From assembly GCA_019313185.1 (NCBI GenBank), contig JAFDBS010000140.1, forward strand, positions 377-64,376: 64,000 nt of DNA, given 5' to 3'. Below, piece by piece: positions 20,775 through 26,344 of the stretch. The translations under genes and the position numbers were made by a program. Position 1 is the stretch's first letter, and every line of letters begins with the position of its first letter. The notes beneath the pieces were generated by a model. The model was not told the origin of the DNA, did not search any database, and saw only the letters and a list, made by a program, of their open reading frames with translations. Source of the stretch: Deltaproteobacteria bacterium. Lineage in GTDB: Bacteria; Desulfobacterota; Desulfuromonadia; Desulfuromonadales; BM103.

Positions 20775-21902
20775 GTGGACTGGCCCTATTACCGTACACT
20801 CTTTCCAGTCACCCAAAGGTCGGCGTTTTTCAACCATGCGGCGATTTCCGCACCATCGACCAAAGTCATTGCTGCCGTTCAAGAGCTGGTCAGCGAGCAA
20901 GCCTATTTGGGCAGCCAAGGGTACCGTTCATGGATGGACCGGGTCGAAACGGTTCGTCAACAAGTCGCGCGATTTGTCTGTGCAGCGCCAAGCGACATCG
21001 CCTTTGTAGCCAATACTTCCACTGGTTTGGGGCTTATGGCCGCTGGGTTTCACTGGACAGCCGGGGACGCCTTGCTGGTCCCGTCACCGGACTTTCCTGC
21101 CAACGTGTACCCATGGCAGAACTTATCCCAGCGTGGTGTCACGATGATAACAGTACCACGTCGCTCAGGTCGCTTGGCTGTCGAGGACTTTGCCAGACTT
21201 GTGACAGATAACGTACGCATGTTGGTTGTCAGCAGCGTTGATTTTGCAACAGGATATGCAGTTGATTTGAATGCAATAGGACGGTTTTGCCGGGAAAACA
21301 ACATCTTTTTTGGTGTTGACGCCATTCAAAGTCTCGGTGTCCGGCCCATCGATGTCGAAAAGGACCAAATCGATTTCGTGGCTGCAGGTGCCCACAAGTG
21401 GCTGCTTGGTCCAATGGGCATTGGCCTGCTCTATATTTCACCCAGGTTGCGACAACATCTGGATCTGCCACTGGTCGGATGGAAAAGTGTGGTTCATGAA
21501 GAAGATTTTCGTTTGCATTTCCAATTGCGGAAAGATGCCGCTGGGTTTGAGCCGGGCACATTGAACGTGGCCGGCATTGTTGGCTTGGGCGCGGCCATAT
21601 CGCTCTTGGAGGAGGTTGGCCTTGTGCAAATCGAGCAGCGCGTGAGCATCCTTTTGGATGAGTTGGCGGACGGTTTGGCGCAGCGGTCTCTGACTTTAAA
21701 AACGCCCTGGCCTGGCAAAGAGCGGTGTGGCATTTTGAGTTTCACAGCGGGCGATGACGTCTTCGCTCTCTCTAAACATCTGAACGAGCAAGGCGTTGTC
21801 TTGGCTCTGAGGGACGGTGGGTTCCGGCTTTCACCCCATTTCTACAATGACGCCGCCGACATCGAACGCTTCTTTTATGCGCTGGATTCGTTTTCAGGGT
21901 GA
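20775..21902 (+). CDS. Class V aminotransferase-fold PLP enzyme (cysteine desulfurase / C-S lyase-like)
   Basis: 375 aa with the PLP-lysine context AAGAHKWLLGPMGIGLLY. GTG start behind GAAGGGAGGG. Its 3' end overlaps the convergent dipeptidase gene by 28 nt. Confidence 0.85.
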   Translation: MDWPYYRTLFPVTQRSAFFNHAAISAPSTKVIAAVQELVSEQAYLGSQGYRSWMDRVETVRQQVARFVCAAPSDIAFVANTSTGLGLMAAGFHWTAGDALLVPSPDFPANVYPWQNLSQRGVTMITVPRRSGRLAVEDFARLVTDNVRMLVVSSVDFATGYAVDLNAIGRFCRENNIFFGVDAIQSLGVRPIDVEKDQIDFVAAGAHKWLLGPMGIGLLYISPRLRQHLDLPLVGWKSVVHEEDFRLHFQLRKDAAGFEPGTLNVAGIVGLGAAISLLEEVGLVQIEQRVSILLDELADGLAQRSLTLKTPWPGKERCGILSFTAGDDVFALSKHLNEQGVVLALRDGGFRLSPHFYNDAADIERFFYALDSFSG

Positions 21903-22942
21903 CCATTCAGGCCGTTTGGGAGTGCCTCAAGGTAAAATTCAAACCAATTGCCGCCAAGCAGAGCGTCAATTTCGGTTTTCGGATAACCGGCCTGAACCAT
22001 AAGCTCCACCAAGTTTTCCAGTTGGGCATGGCTTTCCAGTCCCGAGCAGTTTGTTTCATACCCGCCGAGATCGCTGCCCAGGGCAAAACCCCGGCTGCCC
22101 CACCGCTGTACAAGATAGTCGATTTGTTCGAAAACCTGCCTGCAGTCAGATTTGCCCGAGGTCGACAGCATCTCTGGCGCAAAACTTAAACCAATTACCC
22201 CGTTTCGGGATAACAATACAGAGATTTGGTCATCGCCCAGATTACGCGGTGTGTCGCAAAAATGCCTAAGCCCGGTATGCGAGCAACAAAGATGACCATG
22301 GAAAGAATCAAGCAGTTCCCAAAAACAAACTTCTGCCAAATGAGCGATATCGATAACAAAACCCCGTGTTTCGAGATTGGGTAACAGGGTCTGACAAGCC
22401 TTCGTTAAGCCTTCGGGGTTGACTGTTGTATTGCCGTCAGCGAGGCGATTTCTGCCGACGTGAGTTAAGCCGATAGTATGCACCCCCCAAACCCTGAGAA
22501 AAGAGGTGCCAATGTCCACCAACGCGTCAGCATTTTCTAAAAGAAGCATTTGACTGGTGAAACCTGGGGTGCCCCAAGCTGTTTCCAACTCCTCGCGTGT
22601 CCGAATTGTCGACAGGCTTGCAGTCAGGGCCTGCATAAGGAAAAGTTGCTCAGTCACATGTTGAACTGCCGTTGAACCATTAAATTTATCATTGCAAAAG
22701 ATTGCGCTGTTAAAAATTCTTACCTTGCCATCGCGGAGCGAAGATGGAGAGATGGGACCCCCACCTTTCTTTTCAAAAGGCAGGATGCACTGCTCTTTCA
22801 TAAGAGAATACAAAAGGTCTACGTGGCCGTCAAAACTCGACTGCCATGGGCTGACTTCATCGCTGGGCAAGCAGGTAGTCACTATGGATGCGTTCAAAAT
22901 GGTTTCGGTGGTTGCGGATGGTCCACTGGATGGTGCCCTCAT
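21875..22942 (-). CDS. Membrane-dipeptidase family (peptidase M19) protein
   Basis: M19 hallmarks FDGHVDL, VIDIAHL, CCSHTGLRHFCDTPRNLGDDQI and ALGSDLGG. ATG 22942 overlaps the methyltransferase gene by 86 nt. GTG 22882 and TTG 22870 are in-frame alternative starts. Confidence 0.8.
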   Translation of the reverse strand: MRAPSSGPSATTETILNASIVTTCLPSDEVSPWQSSFDGHVDLLYSLMKEQCILPFEKKGGGPISPSSLRDGKVRIFNSAIFCNDKFNGSTAVQHVTEQLFLMQALTASLSTIRTREELETAWGTPGFTSQMLLLENADALVDIGTSFLRVWGVHTIGLTHVGRNRLADGNTTVNPEGLTKACQTLLPNLETRGFVIDIAHLAEVCFWELLDSFHGHLCCSHTGLRHFCDTPRNLGDDQISVLLSRNGVIGLSFAPEMLSTSGKSDCRQVFEQIDYLVQRWGSRGFALGSDLGGYETNCSGLESHAQLENLVELMVQAGYPKTEIDALLGGNWFEFYLEALPNGLNGHPENESSA

Positions 22943-23780
22943 CCAAAATTTTCCAGGCAGGCAACAATTTGTTTTCCAGTAGATGTCGAACGTTTATGTG
23001 AGCATGCCCGGCAAACGAACCGCTCGGAACGCCTCCAAGCCAAGCAGTTTTGGGGGCGATTTCTGTCGACCACGACCAAGGGTCTGCCACCAACAGCTGT
23101 GCTCTGGTGTCTGATGTGACCCGGTTTAATTCGTCAAGGTGCTTGAGCGGCGCGGGAAGCTTGTCCAGCAAATTCAGAGAGCTGCTGCACTGGAAAACAG
23201 ACTTCGGGAAAGGCAAAGCCAAGGCGTCTGCCAAGACGAACTCGACCCGATTAAGAGGCCAATCATGAGGCAAGCGGACTTCCCGATGTTCGGTCAATTC
23301 GCCTTCCATGATTAAGTCGAACGACAAGCGACCTTCGCGAGTAAGAAGGCGAGCAGTTTGAATGAAGGCATGAGAGCGATCAATGCCAACAGCAAGCTCA
23401 GCGTTGCGCGCTAATTCAAACGTCAGTCTGCCGACTGCGCAACCGGTGTCCAAGGCAACCCCGGACGAGGCATTGAGCATTGATGACCAGCTGAGGTAGG
23501 CTGTATTCTGATCGGGGTCATCGAAAAGATCGGCAAAGTGACTCCAGAGATAAGCGGATACGACCGGTAGCTCTGTATATTTACCGACCAACGCCAAGTC
23601 GCTCTGTGGAAGAAGGCAGGCCATGCCATGGTCAATAGGGTAGTTTTTCCGGCAACCAGGGCAGGTTAATGTGGCCGTGTAAATATCTCCTTGGCGGGTT
23701 TCTTGGATATGTGCCGCTAGCGGGCGCTCTTCCGGTAGACAACCTGGGCAGACCACCAGATCAAGAAGTTGTCTGTGCAT
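22857..23780 (-). CDS. Class I SAM-dependent methyltransferase with N-terminal Trm112-like zinc knuckle
   Basis: The N-terminus LLDLVVCPGC...LTCPGCRKNYPI is a Trm112p-like CxxC/CxxC element. SAM motif I is VALDTGCAVGRL, followed by a post-I acidic loop (GIDRS). Confidence 0.8.
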   Translation of the reverse strand: MHRQLLDLVVCPGCLPEERPLAAHIQETRQGDIYTATLTCPGCRKNYPIDHGMACLLPQSDLALVGKYTELPVVSAYLWSHFADLFDDPDQNTAYLSWSSMLNASSGVALDTGCAVGRLTFELARNAELAVGIDRSHAFIQTARLLTREGRLSFDLIMEGELTEHREVRLPHDWPLNRVEFVLADALALPFPKSVFQCSSSLNLLDKLPAPLKHLDELNRVTSDTRAQLLVADPWSWSTEIAPKTAWLGGVPSGSFAGHAHINVRHLLENKLLPAWKILDEGTIQWTIRNHRNHFERIHSDYLLAQR

Positions 23781-23853: not shown

Positions 23854-24024
23854 TCAAGCCGGGCCGTGGCAGCTCGGCGCATGGCAACTGGGCGCATGGC
23901 AACTCGGTGCATGGCAACTGGGCGCATGGCAACTCGGTGCATGACAGCTCGGTGCATGACAACTCGGTGCATGACAGCTGGCTAGACTAGAAACTTTTTT
24001 TTCAACTTTACGGGTTTTCAGCAT
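23854..24024 (-). CDS. 56-aa Cys-His pentapeptide-repeat peptide, candidate RiPP precursor
   Basis: ATG at 24024 lies 7 nt after AGGAGG, which directly follows the radical SAM stop codon. Translation: MLKTRKVEKKVSSLA SCHAP x7 SCHGPA. The longer ORF-track version (to 24078) would overlap the upstream gene. Confidence 0.7.
   Translation of the reverse strand: MLKTRKVEKKVSSLASCHAPSCHAPSCHAPSCHAPSCHAPSCHAPSCHAPSCHGPA
23860..23979 (-). repeat. Eight tandem 15-bp units encoding SCHAP/SCHGP
   Basis: Read directly: AGC/T TGT/C CAT GCA/G CCG/C repeated. Units 1-7 differ only at third codon positions. Unit 8 has CAC and GGC. Confidence 0.95.
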
Positions 24025-24037
24025 TGTACTACCTCCT

Positions 24038-26074
24038 TCATTCTGGGGTTTCGGGTTGAACCGCAGCCAAGAGTTCAAGCTGGCTTAATTCTCGTGCTGC
24101 ATCTTGGCACGTGGCCAGAAAATCGGCGTCTGACATTGTTGTTCCGTAAGTTGGCTTCAATTTAACAGCGATCTCTTTTAAGGTGATTGTCCCTGAGCAA
24201 TGCATGAGAAAGTCCCGGCCAAAAGCATTGACCTCAGTCACCTCAAGTTCTGTGTTCTGCTGACGAAATGCTAAATGGCAGGGGCTTTTCGTATAGCTCC
24301 GCACGTAGTTGCCAGCTTTCAGATCGGCAACGATAGATGGCATATCATAGTCAAACGATTCAACAATGACATTTTTGGGTCGCCGTGGCTGCCAATCATG
24401 TAAATGACACAAATCTATATTAACGGGTTTTTCGGATTTGGCAAATTCGGCAACCCCAATGGCGGCACATTCGTACAAGAGAACATTTTCCAGGTGTGAC
24501 CAATCGGTCTCATTTTGCAGACCGCAGAGTTTGGCGCGGGCGAATCCTGGAAAATGTTGAAAACACTTAGCGGCATTCATGTCAGCCATGTGCCCTGCGG
24601 TCCTATCGACCTGTCGTACGAAGCTTAGAAACAGATCGGCAGGGGATTCCATGAACGCTTTGCAAAGCAGCAAAAAGGTTTTGGGAAATAAATTTATGAT
24701 CAGGGGAAAACCATTGGCAAGGCAGGCGAGGTCAGGCAAAGGCAACGCTGGACAGGAAATGTTCCAGAAGCTGCTGAACACCTCCGGATCGCTGTCGATC
24801 ATTTGCTCGTCTTCTGGAAGTCTTGAGCCCTTGTCAAACTCCAAGCCGAGGGCAAAATACGTATCCACGTTTCGCGTAAGACTTTTAAAATATTTTGTGT
24901 GCAGGTCTGTCCCCGGCAAAACGGTCGGAAGTTGCATCAATGGATTACTGTTGCCCTGAATGCCACACGCGAGAGCGAGGAACAATGTCGCATCAACATC
25001 ATCCTTTTGCTCCTCAGGAAACCCGATCACGAAGCTGAGAGTCGGAACCAACCCAACTTCGGTTGTTTCGCGGACGCGTGAGAACAAAATCTTTTGATCG
25101 ACGCGCTTCCGGATAAAGCTCAGCGTGCGAACGGACCCTGAATCAATGCCATAACACATCGATTCGCAACCAGCTTCACGCATAAGGTCAAGAAGTTTCG
25201 CGTCGACAGTGTCGAGACGAGAAATACAGTACCAGGGAGTGGTCTGCAGGCTGGCACTGAGGACGGCTTGGCAAAAGTGCTCAACGTAGCTTCGATCCGC
25301 TGTGAATTGGTCATAGGCCAAAAGGAAGCAATCTGCGCCATGAGCCTCTCGAAGGGTCCTCATTTCTCGAATAATTCTTGATACGGAATACGTGCGTGTC
25401 CGCCGTTTCCAAAAGGCCGCCTCTGAACAGTAAATACAGTCGTGCGGACATCCGCGTCCAACCTCAAGAATGGCAATGCTCCGCGGCAGTTCGCAGGCCT
25501 GGCGATAAAAGTCGAGGGATTGGACCTTGCTGTAATCAGGCAGCGGCAAGGTGTCGAGGTTAGACAGCAGCGGGCGATCAGAGTTATTGAGGACGGCAGC
25601 GCCACGTCGCCAAGATAGCCCCGCGACTTCTTGCAAATTACCTCCCTTGTCCAGGGCTTTCACCAGTTCGGAAAATGTAACCTCTCCCTCGCCCCGTATG
25701 ACCATGTCAACTTGAGGGAACCTTTCGAGCGTTTCTTTCGCAAGAAACGAGGCGTTGTGGCCGCCCACCACAACCTTCAGTTTGGGCCGGACCTCTTTCA
25801 GGCGTTGCGCAATTTGCAGGATCGGCGGATAGGTTACGCATTGAGCGCTGAAAGCGACCAGTTGAGGCTCTGTATCCAAGATCTGCCTGGCAGAATCATG
25901 ATAAATGTCGCGGCCGAATGGCAACGCTCCGGAACGCAGGGCAAGAACCTGATCAAGAATGGTGACCGTGTGCACACAGGGTTCGAGCATCGACGCAAGG
26001 TTTATAAGCCCCAGAGGGGGCAAGTTGTACATGGACTGATGATAAAAAGGTGGAAAAACGAAAGTTATATTCAT
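24038..26074 (-). CDS. B12-binding-domain radical SAM enzyme with C-terminal PqqD-like peptide-recognition segment
   Basis: An N-terminal Rossmann region (KLKVVVGGHNASF...DMVIRGEGE), the cluster motif GCPHDCIYC (nt 25427-25450) and a C-terminal ...EVNAFGRDFLMHCSGTITLKEIAVKL...DADFLATCQDAARELSQLELL. The likely start is MNITFVFPPF at 26074. The upstream in-frame ATG at 26113 is an alternative. Confidence 0.88.
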   Translation of the reverse strand: MNITFVFPPFYHQSMYNLPPLGLINLASMLEPCVHTVTILDQVLALRSGALPFGRDIYHDSARQILDTEPQLVAFSAQCVTYPPILQIAQRLKEVRPKLKVVVGGHNASFLAKETLERFPQVDMVIRGEGEVTFSELVKALDKGGNLQEVAGLSWRRGAAVLNNSDRPLLSNLDTLPLPDYSKVQSLDFYRQACELPRSIAILEVGRGCPHDCIYCSEAAFWKRRTRTYSVSRIIREMRTLREAHGADCFLLAYDQFTADRSYVEHFCQAVLSASLQTTPWYCISRLDTVDAKLLDLMREAGCESMCYGIDSGSVRTLSFIRKRVDQKILFSRVRETTEVGLVPTLSFVIGFPEEQKDDVDATLFLALACGIQGNSNPLMQLPTVLPGTDLHTKYFKSLTRNVDTYFALGLEFDKGSRLPEDEQMIDSDPEVFSSFWNISCPALPLPDLACLANGFPLIINLFPKTFLLLCKAFMESPADLFLSFVRQVDRTAGHMADMNAAKCFQHFPGFARAKLCGLQNETDWSHLENVLLYECAAIGVAEFAKSEKPVNIDLCHLHDWQPRRPKNVIVESFDYDMPSIVADLKAGNYVRSYTKSPCHLAFRQQNTELEVTEVNAFGRDFLMHCSGTITLKEIAVKLKPTYGTTMSDADFLATCQDAARELSQLELLAAVQPETPE

Positions 26075-26344
26075 GTCGACCTGTTTGATGTTGAGCAAAC
26101 CAGGTCTAAGCATAACAAAGACTCATGCGTTCGCCAAGTGGAGAGGCCTGAACAGTCTAGATGCAATGTCGACGATCATCGAAAACGGTGGAACGCGGCA
26201 GGCAAAGCGCCGGATCAAAACTTGGAATTAAATTTGCAAAGACTAAGAAATGTTATGCCGATTGACTGTCCAGGTTTAATAGTATTGTTAAATCGCGGTT
26301 ATTAAATCGTCTTATAACTTATGACTGTTCATTAATCCTTTCAG

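What the first reader, a model, noticed from the sequence alone, without database searches (positions are those of the whole stretch)
24041..24290. C-terminal 80 or so residues of the radical SAM enzyme look like a fused PqqD-type RiPP recognition element
The tail ...TELEVTEVNAFGRDFLMHCSGTITLKEIAVKLKPTYGTTMSDADFLATCQDAARELSQLELLAA follows the PqqD/RRE pattern as I know it: LNxxaxxIwxxcDGxxTvxEIaxxLxxxY, then a variable stretch, then vxxFlxxLxxxGLl. A fused RRE would explain how a 15-aa leader is recognised. It is the strongest single argument that the adjacent peptide is the substrate.
Basis: inference. Interest (0 to 1): 0.6.

Follow-up and report, generated by a model that had tools for sequence, protein, structure and literature searches.

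The report
Peptide-recognition domain fused to radical SAM enzyme

Summary
The quoted tail is the C-terminus of the 691-aa B12-binding radical SAM ORF (24038-26113, minus strand).

1. It is not a scoring member of Pfam PqqD. PF05402 gives no hit even at E<=10, and TIGR03859 scores 12 bits against a cut-off of 46. Homology appears only with profiles. A 67-sequence family alignment against 20 true PqqD domains gives hhalign probability 96.1%, E 3e-9, over residues 612-687. Reversed and shuffled controls give <=1%.

2. The domain is about 180 aa (residues 512-691), not 80. AlphaFold2 with the 67-sequence alignment gives pLDDT 89. The model has a helical part followed by strand-helix-strand-strand-three helices. 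The best Foldseek hits are NGO1945 (3DEE) and TglI (8HI7), which are partner proteins of MNIO enzymes. Next come PqqD, lasso-peptide B1 proteins bound to leader peptides, TruD and ThcOx.

About 75 relatives exist, nearly all labelled as delta-proteobacterial MAGs. In 59 of 67 full-length loci a peptide starting ML[KQE][IV][KR]x[VI]EKK follows the enzyme directly. This holds whether the core is (xCHAP)n or a single TGA(Sec)-HAP unit.

Leader binding is inferred, not shown. The closest characterised enzyme, ApyD, is already described as an RRE-containing B12-rSAM. Other notes of this scan, on this same window, already cover the operon and its thiohistidine hypothesis.

The parts
24038..26113 (-). 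B12-binding radical SAM enzyme, 691-aa ORF. The probable true start is M14, ATG at 26074.
   Evidence: Searches give the ORF and translation. Pfam finds B12-binding at residues 29-151 (E 1.4e-17) and Radical_SAM at 217-379 (E 4.3e-16). The best NCBIfam hit is ApyD, 276 bits over residues 18-451, below its 750-bit cut-off. The homologues P0004, P0005 and P0006 start at the position of M14.
24041..24580 (-). Whole C-terminal recognition module, residues 512-691: a helical subdomain plus an RRE fold, resembling an MNIO partner protein.
   Evidence: AlphaFold2 with the 67-sequence alignment A5 gives pLDDT 89.2 and pTM 0.82. Foldseek finds 3DEE NGO1945 (E 8e-4, 173 aligned columns) and TglHI chain 8hi7_A/8hci_A (TMq 0.60-0.65). 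A profile of the C-terminal half finds free-standing HvfC/ApyI-like proteins at E 1e-6 to 6e-4 in 1.84 billion proteins. The module occurs once in the genome.
24395..24574 (-). Helical subdomain, residues 514-573, holding the invariant Tyr-Glu (Y547-E548).
   Evidence: The model has helices H3-21, H30-44 and H57-62. E37 is invariant and Y36 >=90% conserved in A5. This part aligns with the helical (DUF2063-like) part of NGO1945 and TglI.
24080..24370 (-). RRE fold proper, residues 582-678: strand 582-589, helix 591-599, strands 609-619 and 622-628, helices 630-637, 645-656 and 662-678.
   Evidence: Secondary structure is. Foldseek hits to RREs are PqqD 5sxy (prob 1.00), TbiB1 with leader 5v1u/5v1v, lasso B1 with leader 6jx3_B (rmsd 2.6), TruD 4bs9, ThcOx 5lq4 and PqqD 3g2b.
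24050..24280 (-). Segment with significant profile homology to PqqD, residues 612-688.
   Evidence: hhalign of A5 against A6 gives probability 96.1%, E 3.1e-9 and 72 columns, query 101-176 against PqqD 24-95 of 99. Controls give <=1%. With the A4 profile the top two PDB sequence hits are PqqD 3g2b and 5sxy, at non-significant E 0.12 and 0.72.
23854..24024 (-). Presumed substrate: a 56-aa peptide MLKTRKVEKKVSSLAS + (CHAPS)x7 + CHGPA. The leader is residues 1-16 (23977-24024).
   Evidence: Translation is. Homologous peptides lie directly downstream of the enzyme in 59 of 67 full-length loci, with the leader consensus M-L-[KQE]-[IV]-[KR]-x-[VI]-E-K-K.
22857..23780 (-). Context: a Trm112-like zinc ribbon fused to a class I SAM methyltransferase.
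   Evidence: Pfam finds Methyltransf_11/25/31 and Trm112p. The best NCBIfam hit is the OvoA C-terminal 4-mercaptohistidine N1-methyltransferase, TIGR04345, E 3.6e-29, 102 bits, below its 170-bit cut-off. A homologue is present in 27 of 66 related loci.
21875..22942 (-). Context: M19-family dipeptidase.
   Evidence: Pfam Peptidase_M19, E 3.4e-49. A homologue is present in 43 of 66 related loci.

Best explanation
Residues about 512-691 of the B12-binding radical SAM enzyme form a fused peptide-recognition module. A short helical subdomain is followed by a RiPP recognition element (RRE). The RRE is a three-stranded sheet plus three helices, with one extra helix inserted after the first strand. 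It is a distant homologue of PqqD. Its nearest relatives are the partner proteins of MNIO enzymes (NGO1945, TglI, HvfC, ApyI).

Inferred mechanism: the basic, conserved N-terminal leader of the downstream peptide (MLKTRKVEKK...) adds as an extra strand against the exposed edge strand (ELEVTEVN, residues 622-628) and packs on the last helix, as in leader-bound lasso B1 and other RRE structures. This tethers the peptide so that its eight Cys-His-Ala-Pro units can be fed one after another into the radical SAM/cobalamin active site.

Shown here: sequence homology, predicted fold, fusion architecture, and co-conservation with a leader-bearing peptide. Inferred: that the leader binds, how it binds, and what chemistry the enzyme performs.
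For: 1. hhalign of the 67-sequence family alignment against 20 bona fide PqqD domains gives probability 96.1%, E 3.1e-9, over residues 612-687. Reversed and shuffled controls give <=1%.
2. The AlphaFold2 model of residues 512-691 has pLDDT 89.2 and pTM 0.82.
3. Foldseek against the PDB is dominated by RiPP recognition proteins: NGO1945 3DEE, TglI 8HI7/8HCI, PqqD 5SXY/3G2B, TbiB1 with leader 5V1U/5V1V, lasso B1 with leader 6JX3, TruD and ThcOx. NGO1945 and TglI are described as DUF2063+RRE partner proteins in PMC12452194.
4. A profile of the C-terminal half finds free-standing 260-305-aa proteins at E 1e-6 to 6e-4 in a library of 1.84 billion. These score as HvfC/ApyI 'RiPP maturation proteins' and carry weak PqqD and NGO1945_C hits at the aligned end.
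5. The closest characterised enzyme by NCBIfam is ApyD, which its authors call an RRE-containing B12-rSAM (bioRxiv 10.1101/2023.10.30.564719).
6. In 59 of 67 full-length family loci a peptide with the same 10-residue N-terminus lies directly downstream, across two different core types.
7. The RRE part is acidic, mean net charge -5.4 and -3 in the window. The first 12 leader residues are basic, mean +2.1 and +4 in the window.
Against: There is no direct HMM membership: PF05402 gives no hit at E<=10, TIGR03859 12 bits against 46 and ApyI 18 bits against 200. PDB sequence-profile hits to PqqD are not significant on their own (E 0.12-0.72).

The fold has an inserted helix between strands 1 and 2, so it is not a textbook RRE.

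For DUF2063-type RREs, a 2025 survey could not define a leader recognition motif (PMC12710340). Binding by this RRE type is therefore less well established than for PqqD or lasso RREs.

No complex model and no binding data were obtainable here. Foldseek also lists non-RiPP winged helices (the Rickettsia PKMT C-terminal domain, Rv2067c). Part of the leader conservation is built into my search pattern, which required [VI]E. The pattern-free search that only required three or more CH pairs found the same leader in the roughly 40 Cys-repeat loci it listed.
Confidence: 0.75

Rival explanations
1. The module has the RRE fold but serves mainly as a structural or docking element. For example, it could replace the enzyme-partner interface that TglI or MbnC make with their MNIO, or mediate dimerisation. 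Substrate recognition would then rest on the repeated core, not the leader.
For: The best structural matches are MNIO partner proteins, which also form obligate heterodimers with their enzymes. DUF2063-type RREs lack a defined recognition motif in the survey PMC12710340. The core motif [C/U]-H-x-P is itself highly conserved.
Against: The first 10 leader residues are conserved across both core types, Cys repeats and single Sec. That is hard to explain without a reader for them. The edge strand and the following 'N-F-G-D-L' segment are among the most conserved positions.
Confidence: 0.13
2. The tail is a generic winged-helix domain that binds nucleic acid or has a regulatory role, unrelated to the peptide.
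For: NGO1945 was originally annotated as a putative transcription regulator (title of PDB entry 3DEE). Pfam names DUF2063 a 'putative DNA-binding domain'.
Against: The module is net acidic (mean -5.4), which is unfavourable for DNA binding. It is fused to a peptide-modifying type of enzyme and always sits next to a leader-bearing peptide. NGO1945 has since been reinterpreted as an MNIO partner (PMC12452194).
Confidence: 0.03
3. The resemblance to PqqD is a chance match of a common helix-rich pattern, and the tail is just the ordinary C-terminal domain of B12-dependent radical SAM enzymes.
For: There is no Pfam or PDB sequence hit of significance with single sequences or shallow profiles.
Against: hhalign gives E 3e-9 with clean controls. 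The confident model hits many independent RRE structures. Free-standing homologues are RiPP partner proteins.
Confidence: 0.02

Closest known systems
ApyD, the B12-dependent radical SAM Tyr C-beta-methyltransferase of aminopyruvatide biosynthesis (NCBIfam NF050148)
   Same: It is the best-scoring named family for the catalytic part: 276 bits over residues 18-451. It has the same architecture, B12-binding + radical SAM + C-terminal extension. The authors describe it as an RRE-containing B12-rSAM that acts on a ribosomal peptide. More distant B12-rSAMs that share the C-terminal module also score best to ApyD, at 228-360 bits.
   Different: The score is far below the 750-bit equivalog cut-off. 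The C-terminal 240 residues do not align to the ApyD model. The substrate is different: a Cys-His repeat peptide rather than a C-terminal GYLYD. The operon has no MNIO, no P450 and no ApyI, and no MNIO gene was found in the 86%-complete genome.
MNIO partner proteins: NGO1945 (PDB 3DEE), TglI (8HI7), HvfC (NF050145), ApyI (NF050149)
   Same: These are the best structural matches over about 173 of 180 residues, TM 0.52-0.65. Free-standing HvfC/ApyI-like proteins are found by sequence profile. They share the two-part build of a helical domain plus an RRE.
   Different: Here the module is fused to a radical SAM enzyme instead of being a separate partner of an MNIO. HMM scores are far below cut-offs: ApyI 18 bits against 200, and HvfC was not listed for the tail. 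The N-terminal part of DUF2063 proteins is missing, since homology starts near position 85-110 of those proteins.
PqqD (PF05402 / TIGR03859), the founding RRE
   Same: Profile-profile homology over 72 columns with the hallmark Asn and Gly aligned. The strand-strand-three-helix core is the same. PqqD structures 5SXY and 3G2B are among the Foldseek hits. PqqD likewise presents a peptide to a radical SAM enzyme (PqqE); this last point is from established knowledge.
   Different: It does not reach the family thresholds. A helix is inserted between strand 1 and strand 2. It is fused to the C-terminus of a B12-type enzyme, not free-standing or N-terminal as in SPASM-type RiPP enzymes.
Lasso-peptide B1 proteins (TbiB1 5V1U/5V1V, TfuB1 6JX3)
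   Same: The RRE fold matches, TMt 0.71-0.77 and rmsd 2.6 A for 6JX3_B. These structures show the leader bound as an extra strand, which is the binding mode inferred here.
   Different: They are free-standing 85-aa proteins. Foldseek sequence identity is 10-15%, and the leader motifs are unrelated.
CefA, the 'Cys-every-fifth' RiPP precursor (NF038108); relevant to the peptide only
   Same: The window peptide gives a weak hit, E 0.0024 and 17.7 bits, because Cys recurs every fifth residue.
   Different: The score is below the 30-bit cut-off. The similarity is limited to repeat spacing, and the leader and the enzyme set were not compared.

Membership tests
PqqD (Pfam PF05402 / NCBIfam TIGR03859) | Family HMM score at or above the curated cut-off (23.4 bits / 46 bits) | tested here: not met
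   PF05402 gives no hit at E<=10 for the full protein, the last 120 aa or the last 83 aa. TIGR03859 gives 11.8-12.8 bits, E 0.08-0.17. A six-frame scan of the genome does not ring at the tail.
PqqD (Pfam PF05402 / NCBIfam TIGR03859) | Homology detectable at profile-profile level, with the LN...DG...I motif in register | tested here: met
   hhalign gives 96.1%, E 3.1e-9, 72 columns. Controls give <=1%.
RiPP recognition element (structural class) | Three-stranded antiparallel sheet followed by three helices (winged helix-turn-helix) | tested here: met
   In the AlphaFold2 model (pLDDT 89.2) the strands are 582-589, 609-619 and 622-628, and the helices 630-637, 645-656 and 662-678. One extra helix (591-599) follows strand 1. 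Foldseek hits many RRE structures.
RiPP recognition element (structural class) | Encoded in or next to a peptide-modifying enzyme, beside a precursor peptide with a conserved leader | tested here: met
   The module is fused to the B12-rSAM. A peptide with a conserved N-terminus lies directly downstream in 59 of 67 loci.
RiPP recognition element (structural class) | Binds the leader (or follower) peptide, usually as a fourth strand | not testable with these tools
   No multimer prediction or binding assay was available. Only charge complementarity supports it: module -5.4 mean, leader +2.1 mean.
MNIO partner protein (HvfC NF050145 / ApyI NF050149 / DUF2063 PF09836 + NGO1945_C PF22106) | Family HMM above cut-off | tested here: not met
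   ApyI gives 18 bits against a 200-bit cut-off. HvfC, PF09836 and PF22106 do not hit the window protein.
MNIO partner protein (HvfC NF050145 / ApyI NF050149 / DUF2063 PF09836 + NGO1945_C PF22106) | Fold similarity to NGO1945 / TglI over both subdomains | tested here: met
   3DEE: E 8.2e-4, TM 0.56/0.52, 173 columns. 8hi7_A/8hci_A: TMq 0.60-0.65.
MNIO partner protein (HvfC NF050145 / ApyI NF050149 / DUF2063 PF09836 + NGO1945_C PF22106) | Works with an adjacent MNIO (PF05114) enzyme | tested here: not met
   No PF05114 match was found in the window's genome at E<=0.01; the genome is 86% complete. The operon holds the rSAM, the peptide, a methyltransferase and an M19 dipeptidase only.
ApyD (NF050148) | Equivalog score >=750 bits over the full 645-position model | tested here: not met
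   276 bits, and only model positions 9-431 align.
ApyD (NF050148) | B12-binding + radical SAM + C-terminal RRE architecture acting on a ribosomal peptide | tested here: met
   Domains are, the RRE, and the adjacent peptide. Activity on the peptide was not tested.

The most novel reading that the evidence does not exclude
The fused recognition module tethers the leader so that the B12-radical SAM enzyme can work along every [Cys or Sec]-His-x-Pro unit and join the sulfur or selenium to the neighbouring imidazole. The M19 dipeptidase then frees the units, and the OvoA-like methyltransferase N-methylates them. This would be a ribosomal, oxygen-independent route to ovothiol- or ovoselenol-type thio/selenohistidines in anaerobes. 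Other notes of this scan proposed the idea. Here it gains three independent observations: the methyltransferase's best family hit is the OvoA 4-mercaptohistidine N1-methyltransferase domain; 20 of the 59 peptides (20 loci) have an in-frame TGA exactly where Cys stands; and one conserved leader is shared by both core types.
Probability: 0.3. Interest if true: 0.9.

Novelty: new member of a known kind. Interest (0 to 1): 0.45.

Why it matters
The result turns a motif resemblance into a tested annotation. The enzyme carries its own peptide-docking module, which marks the operon as a true peptide-modifying (RiPP-type) system and marks the neighbouring repeat peptide as the likely substrate.

It also shows that the module type known from MNIO partner proteins is used, fused, by a clade of B12-radical SAM enzymes in genomes without an MNIO. 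No current family HMM detects it, so RRE-based genome mining would probably miss the roughly 75 related loci found in the genome collection.

Practically, it gives domain boundaries (512-691, with the RRE core at 582-678) and a defined leader (residues 1-16, core motif MLxVKxVEKK). These can be used for binding assays, leader-in-trans experiments and reconstitution of the unknown chemistry.

Tried and rejected
- Direct Pfam and NCBIfam scans of the tail gave only sub-threshold hints.
- A PDB sequence search with a 3-sequence profile found nothing relevant. With 39- and 67-sequence profiles PqqD entries rose to the top, but at non-significant E-values.
- The word-indexed homologue search found only 3 full-length relatives and a few fragments. 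A third search with a broad alignment returned nothing new.
- Full-length AlphaFold2 with 3 sequences was too poor to use (pLDDT 51.6). I therefore re-folded the C-terminal 180 aa with 67 sequences.
- A phmmer search of a free-standing partner-like protein (P0101) against the PDB, meant to confirm which TglHI chain is TglI, found nothing. The chain identity rests on PMC12452194.
- A literature search for the repeat string gave only noise.
- I considered and rejected a SPASM/twitch auxiliary-cluster domain: there is no Cys-rich motif and no Pfam hit in residues 380-691.
- I considered leader-RRE covariation but did not run it, because the two leader types coincide with two clades and the signal would be confounded by descent.
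- Enzyme-plus-leader complex prediction was not possible.
Full report
**What is there.** The minus-strand ORF 24038..26113 encodes 691 aa. Pfam finds only a B12-binding domain (29-151) and a Radical_SAM domain (217-379). The homologues P0004, P0005 and P0006 start at the position of M14, so the true start is probably the ATG at 26074. Seven bases after the stop-overlapping AGGAGG, the ATG at 24024 opens a 56-aa peptide: MLKTRKVEKKVSSLAS, then seven CHAPS units, then CHGPA. Next come a Trm112-fused SAM methyltransferase (22857-23780) and an M19 dipeptidase (21875-22942).

**Direct tests of the PqqD claim fail.** PF05402 gives no hit at E<=10 to the whole protein, the last 120 aa or the last 83 aa. 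NCBIfam gives only sub-threshold hints for the tail. These are ApyI, a 'RiPP maturation protein' (18 bits, E 1.3e-3, model positions 156-258 of 260), and PqqD TIGR03859 (12 bits, E about 0.1). A six-frame PF05402 scan of the window's genome finds a true PqqD domain on another contig but nothing here. A 3-sequence profile against PDB sequences finds nothing relevant.

**Building a family.** The word-indexed protein search found only three full-length relatives. A full HMMER scan of 1.84 billion representatives, using a profile of the C-terminal half (residues 435-691), found 101 proteins. A degenerate-pattern scan of species-representative genomes returned about 75 loci with 45-63% identity across residues 14 to about 685. 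Nearly all carry delta-proteobacterial labels (Desulfuromonadales, Desulfobacterales, Syntrophobacteraceae, Desulfovibrionaceae); two are labelled only Pseudomonadota. From 66 intact loci plus the window I built a 67-sequence alignment of the last 180 residues (A5).

**Homology.** I collected 20 bona fide PqqD domains, all above the Pfam cut-off, from 81 genomes of the same phylum. hhalign of A5 against this set gives probability 96.1%, E 3.1e-9 and score 56.2 over 72 columns. This pairs residues 612-687 with PqqD positions 24-95 of 99. The near-invariant Asn (N629) and Gly (G641) fall on the Asn of 'LN' and the Gly of 'DG' in PqqD. One reversed and ten column-shuffled PqqD alignments score 8-16, with probability <=1%. 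With deeper profiles the two PqqD structures rise to the top of the PDB sequence search, but at E 0.12-0.72, which is not significant alone.

Independently, the representative search found free-standing 260-305-aa proteins at E 1e-6 to 6e-4 that match residues about 520-683. These score as HvfC or ApyI family RiPP maturation proteins. They carry weak DUF2063, NGO1945_C and PqqD hits in the expected places. The tail therefore belongs to the branch of RREs found in partner proteins of MNIO enzymes, and the homologous region is about 170-180 aa, not 80.

**Fold.** Full-length AlphaFold2 with three sequences was poor (pLDDT 51.6). Residues 512-691 with alignment A5 gave pLDDT 89.2 and pTM 0.82. 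In protein numbering the model has:
- helices 514-532, 541-555 and 568-573;
- strand 582-589 and helix 591-599;
- strands 609-619 and 622-628;
- helices 630-637, 645-656 and 662-678.

Foldseek against the PDB ranks NGO1945 (3DEE; E 8e-4, TM 0.56/0.52, 173 columns) first and TglHI chain A (8HI7/8HCI; TMq 0.60-0.65) next. Then come PqqD (5SXY), TbiB1 bound to its leader (5V1U/5V1V), lasso B1 with leader (6JX3_B, rmsd 2.6 A), TruD, ThcOx and PqqD 3G2B. PMC12452194 describes NGO1945 and TglI as DUF2063 + RRE partner proteins of MNIOs. Non-RiPP winged helices (Rickettsia PKMT, Rv2067c) also appear, but with low target coverage. Strand 1 and the helical subdomain lie upstream of it.

**Context that bears on function.** In 59 of 67 full-length loci, a peptide beginning M-L-[KQE]-[IV]-[KR]-x-[VI]-E-K-K lies directly after the enzyme gene. 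Two more (L026, L056) have variants that my pattern missed but an earlier pattern-free search found. Two loci end at the contig edge. My pattern required [VI]E, so the invariance of E8 is partly by construction. The pattern-free search that only required three or more CH pairs showed the same leader in the roughly 40 Cys-repeat loci it listed.

The core is either 5-12 copies of x-C-H-[AGS]-P (39 peptides) or carries an in-frame TGA directly before HAP or HGP (20 peptides, mainly Syntrophobacteraceae). In 18 of these the TGA unit is the only unit; two also carry one or two Cys units. In all 20 the true stop is TAA or TAG. The same leader on two different cores argues that something reads it, and the fused RRE is the obvious reader. 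The RRE part is acidic (mean net charge -5.4) and the first 12 leader residues are basic (mean +2.1, window +4). The most conserved positions include the edge strand and what follows it: L623, V625, E627, V/I628, N629, F631, G632, D634 and L636.

The genome has no detectable MNIO gene at 86% completeness and only this one copy of the module. The module therefore works with the radical SAM enzyme, not with an MNIO.

**Relation to known enzymes.** The catalytic part scores best to ApyD, at 276 bits against a 750-bit cut-off. ApyD is the B12-rSAM that beta-methylates Tyr in aminopyruvatide biosynthesis, and its authors call it RRE-containing. More distant B12-rSAMs that share the C-terminal module also score best to ApyD, at 228-360 bits, all below cut-off. 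An RRE fused to a B12-rSAM is thus a known arrangement. This is an uncharacterised subfamily of it, with a different substrate and operon.

**What the enzyme does chemically is not settled here.** The methyltransferase's best NCBIfam hit is the OvoA C-terminal 4-mercaptohistidine N1-methyltransferase domain (E 3.6e-29, 102 bits, below the 170-bit cut-off). The M19 dipeptidase accompanies the enzyme in 43 of 66 loci, the methyltransferase in 27 and a class V PLP enzyme in 12. Together with the Cys/Sec-His core, this fits the thiohistidine idea already noted by other readers of this window. I rate it about 0.3 and treat it as the novel case, not as part of the verdict on the RRE. C-methylation, the commonest B12-rSAM reaction, remains equally possible.

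**Verdict.** It needs correction on family (MNIO-partner type, not a scoring PqqD member) and on extent (about 180 aa). Leader binding is a well-founded inference, not a result. Interest is moderate: this is a solid, useful annotation with a published precedent, and it sits inside an operon whose chemistry may be far more interesting.

Noticed in passing
L040, L041, L044, L048, L050-L053, L057-L063, L065, L067, L069, L080, L083 (peptide genes just downstream of the rSAM gene): Twenty related loci have an in-frame TGA exactly where Cys stands in the C-H-A-P motif (for example MLQVKEIEKKILVTAVNEASTTYVVPT-TGA-HAPTESPVRR), and the ORF then ends in TAA or TAG. This suggests selenocysteine-containing precursors. 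I did not look for a SECIS element.
   Followed up: partly
window 22857-23780 (-): The operon's methyltransferase scores best to TIGR04345, the OvoA C-terminal 4-mercaptohistidine N1-methyltransferase domain (E 3.6e-29, 102 bits, below the 170-bit cut-off), across nearly the whole model.
   Followed up: partly
window 23854-24024 (-): The repeat peptide gives a weak sub-threshold hit to NCBIfam NF038108, the 'Cys-every-fifth RiPP peptide CefA' (17.7 bits against a 30-bit cut-off). This probably reflects repeat spacing only.
   Followed up: no
window 24107-24109 and 24197-24199 (-), residues C669 and C639: Two cysteines inside the RRE are conserved in 91% and 81% of 67 family members. They sit in the 'LCDG' turn and in the last helix. 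Their role is unknown; it could be structural, metal-binding or redox.
   Followed up: no
window 26074-26113 (-): The longest ORF starts 13 codons upstream of where the homologues P0004, P0005 and P0006 start. The ATG at 26074 (M14) is the likely real start.
   Followed up: partly
G000 contig C174:14640-14816 (+) = L003: The same genome has a bona fide PqqD-domain ORF (PF05402, 68 bits, in a 121-aa open frame) on another contig. This may mark a separate RiPP-type locus.
   Followed up: no
L002:2874-3908 (+): One homologue (51% identity, Logan SRR24270822) has no recognisable peptide gene after the enzyme. It is followed instead by a 344-aa protein with no Pfam hit. L010, L016 and L046 also lack the peptide directly downstream.
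   Followed up: no
L006, L007, L009, L012 and others, 3' end of the rSAM gene: In several relatives the enzyme ORF runs on into ...EEGR* because it overlaps the GGAGG ribosome-binding site of the peptide gene, indicating tight translational coupling of enzyme and peptide.
   Followed up: no
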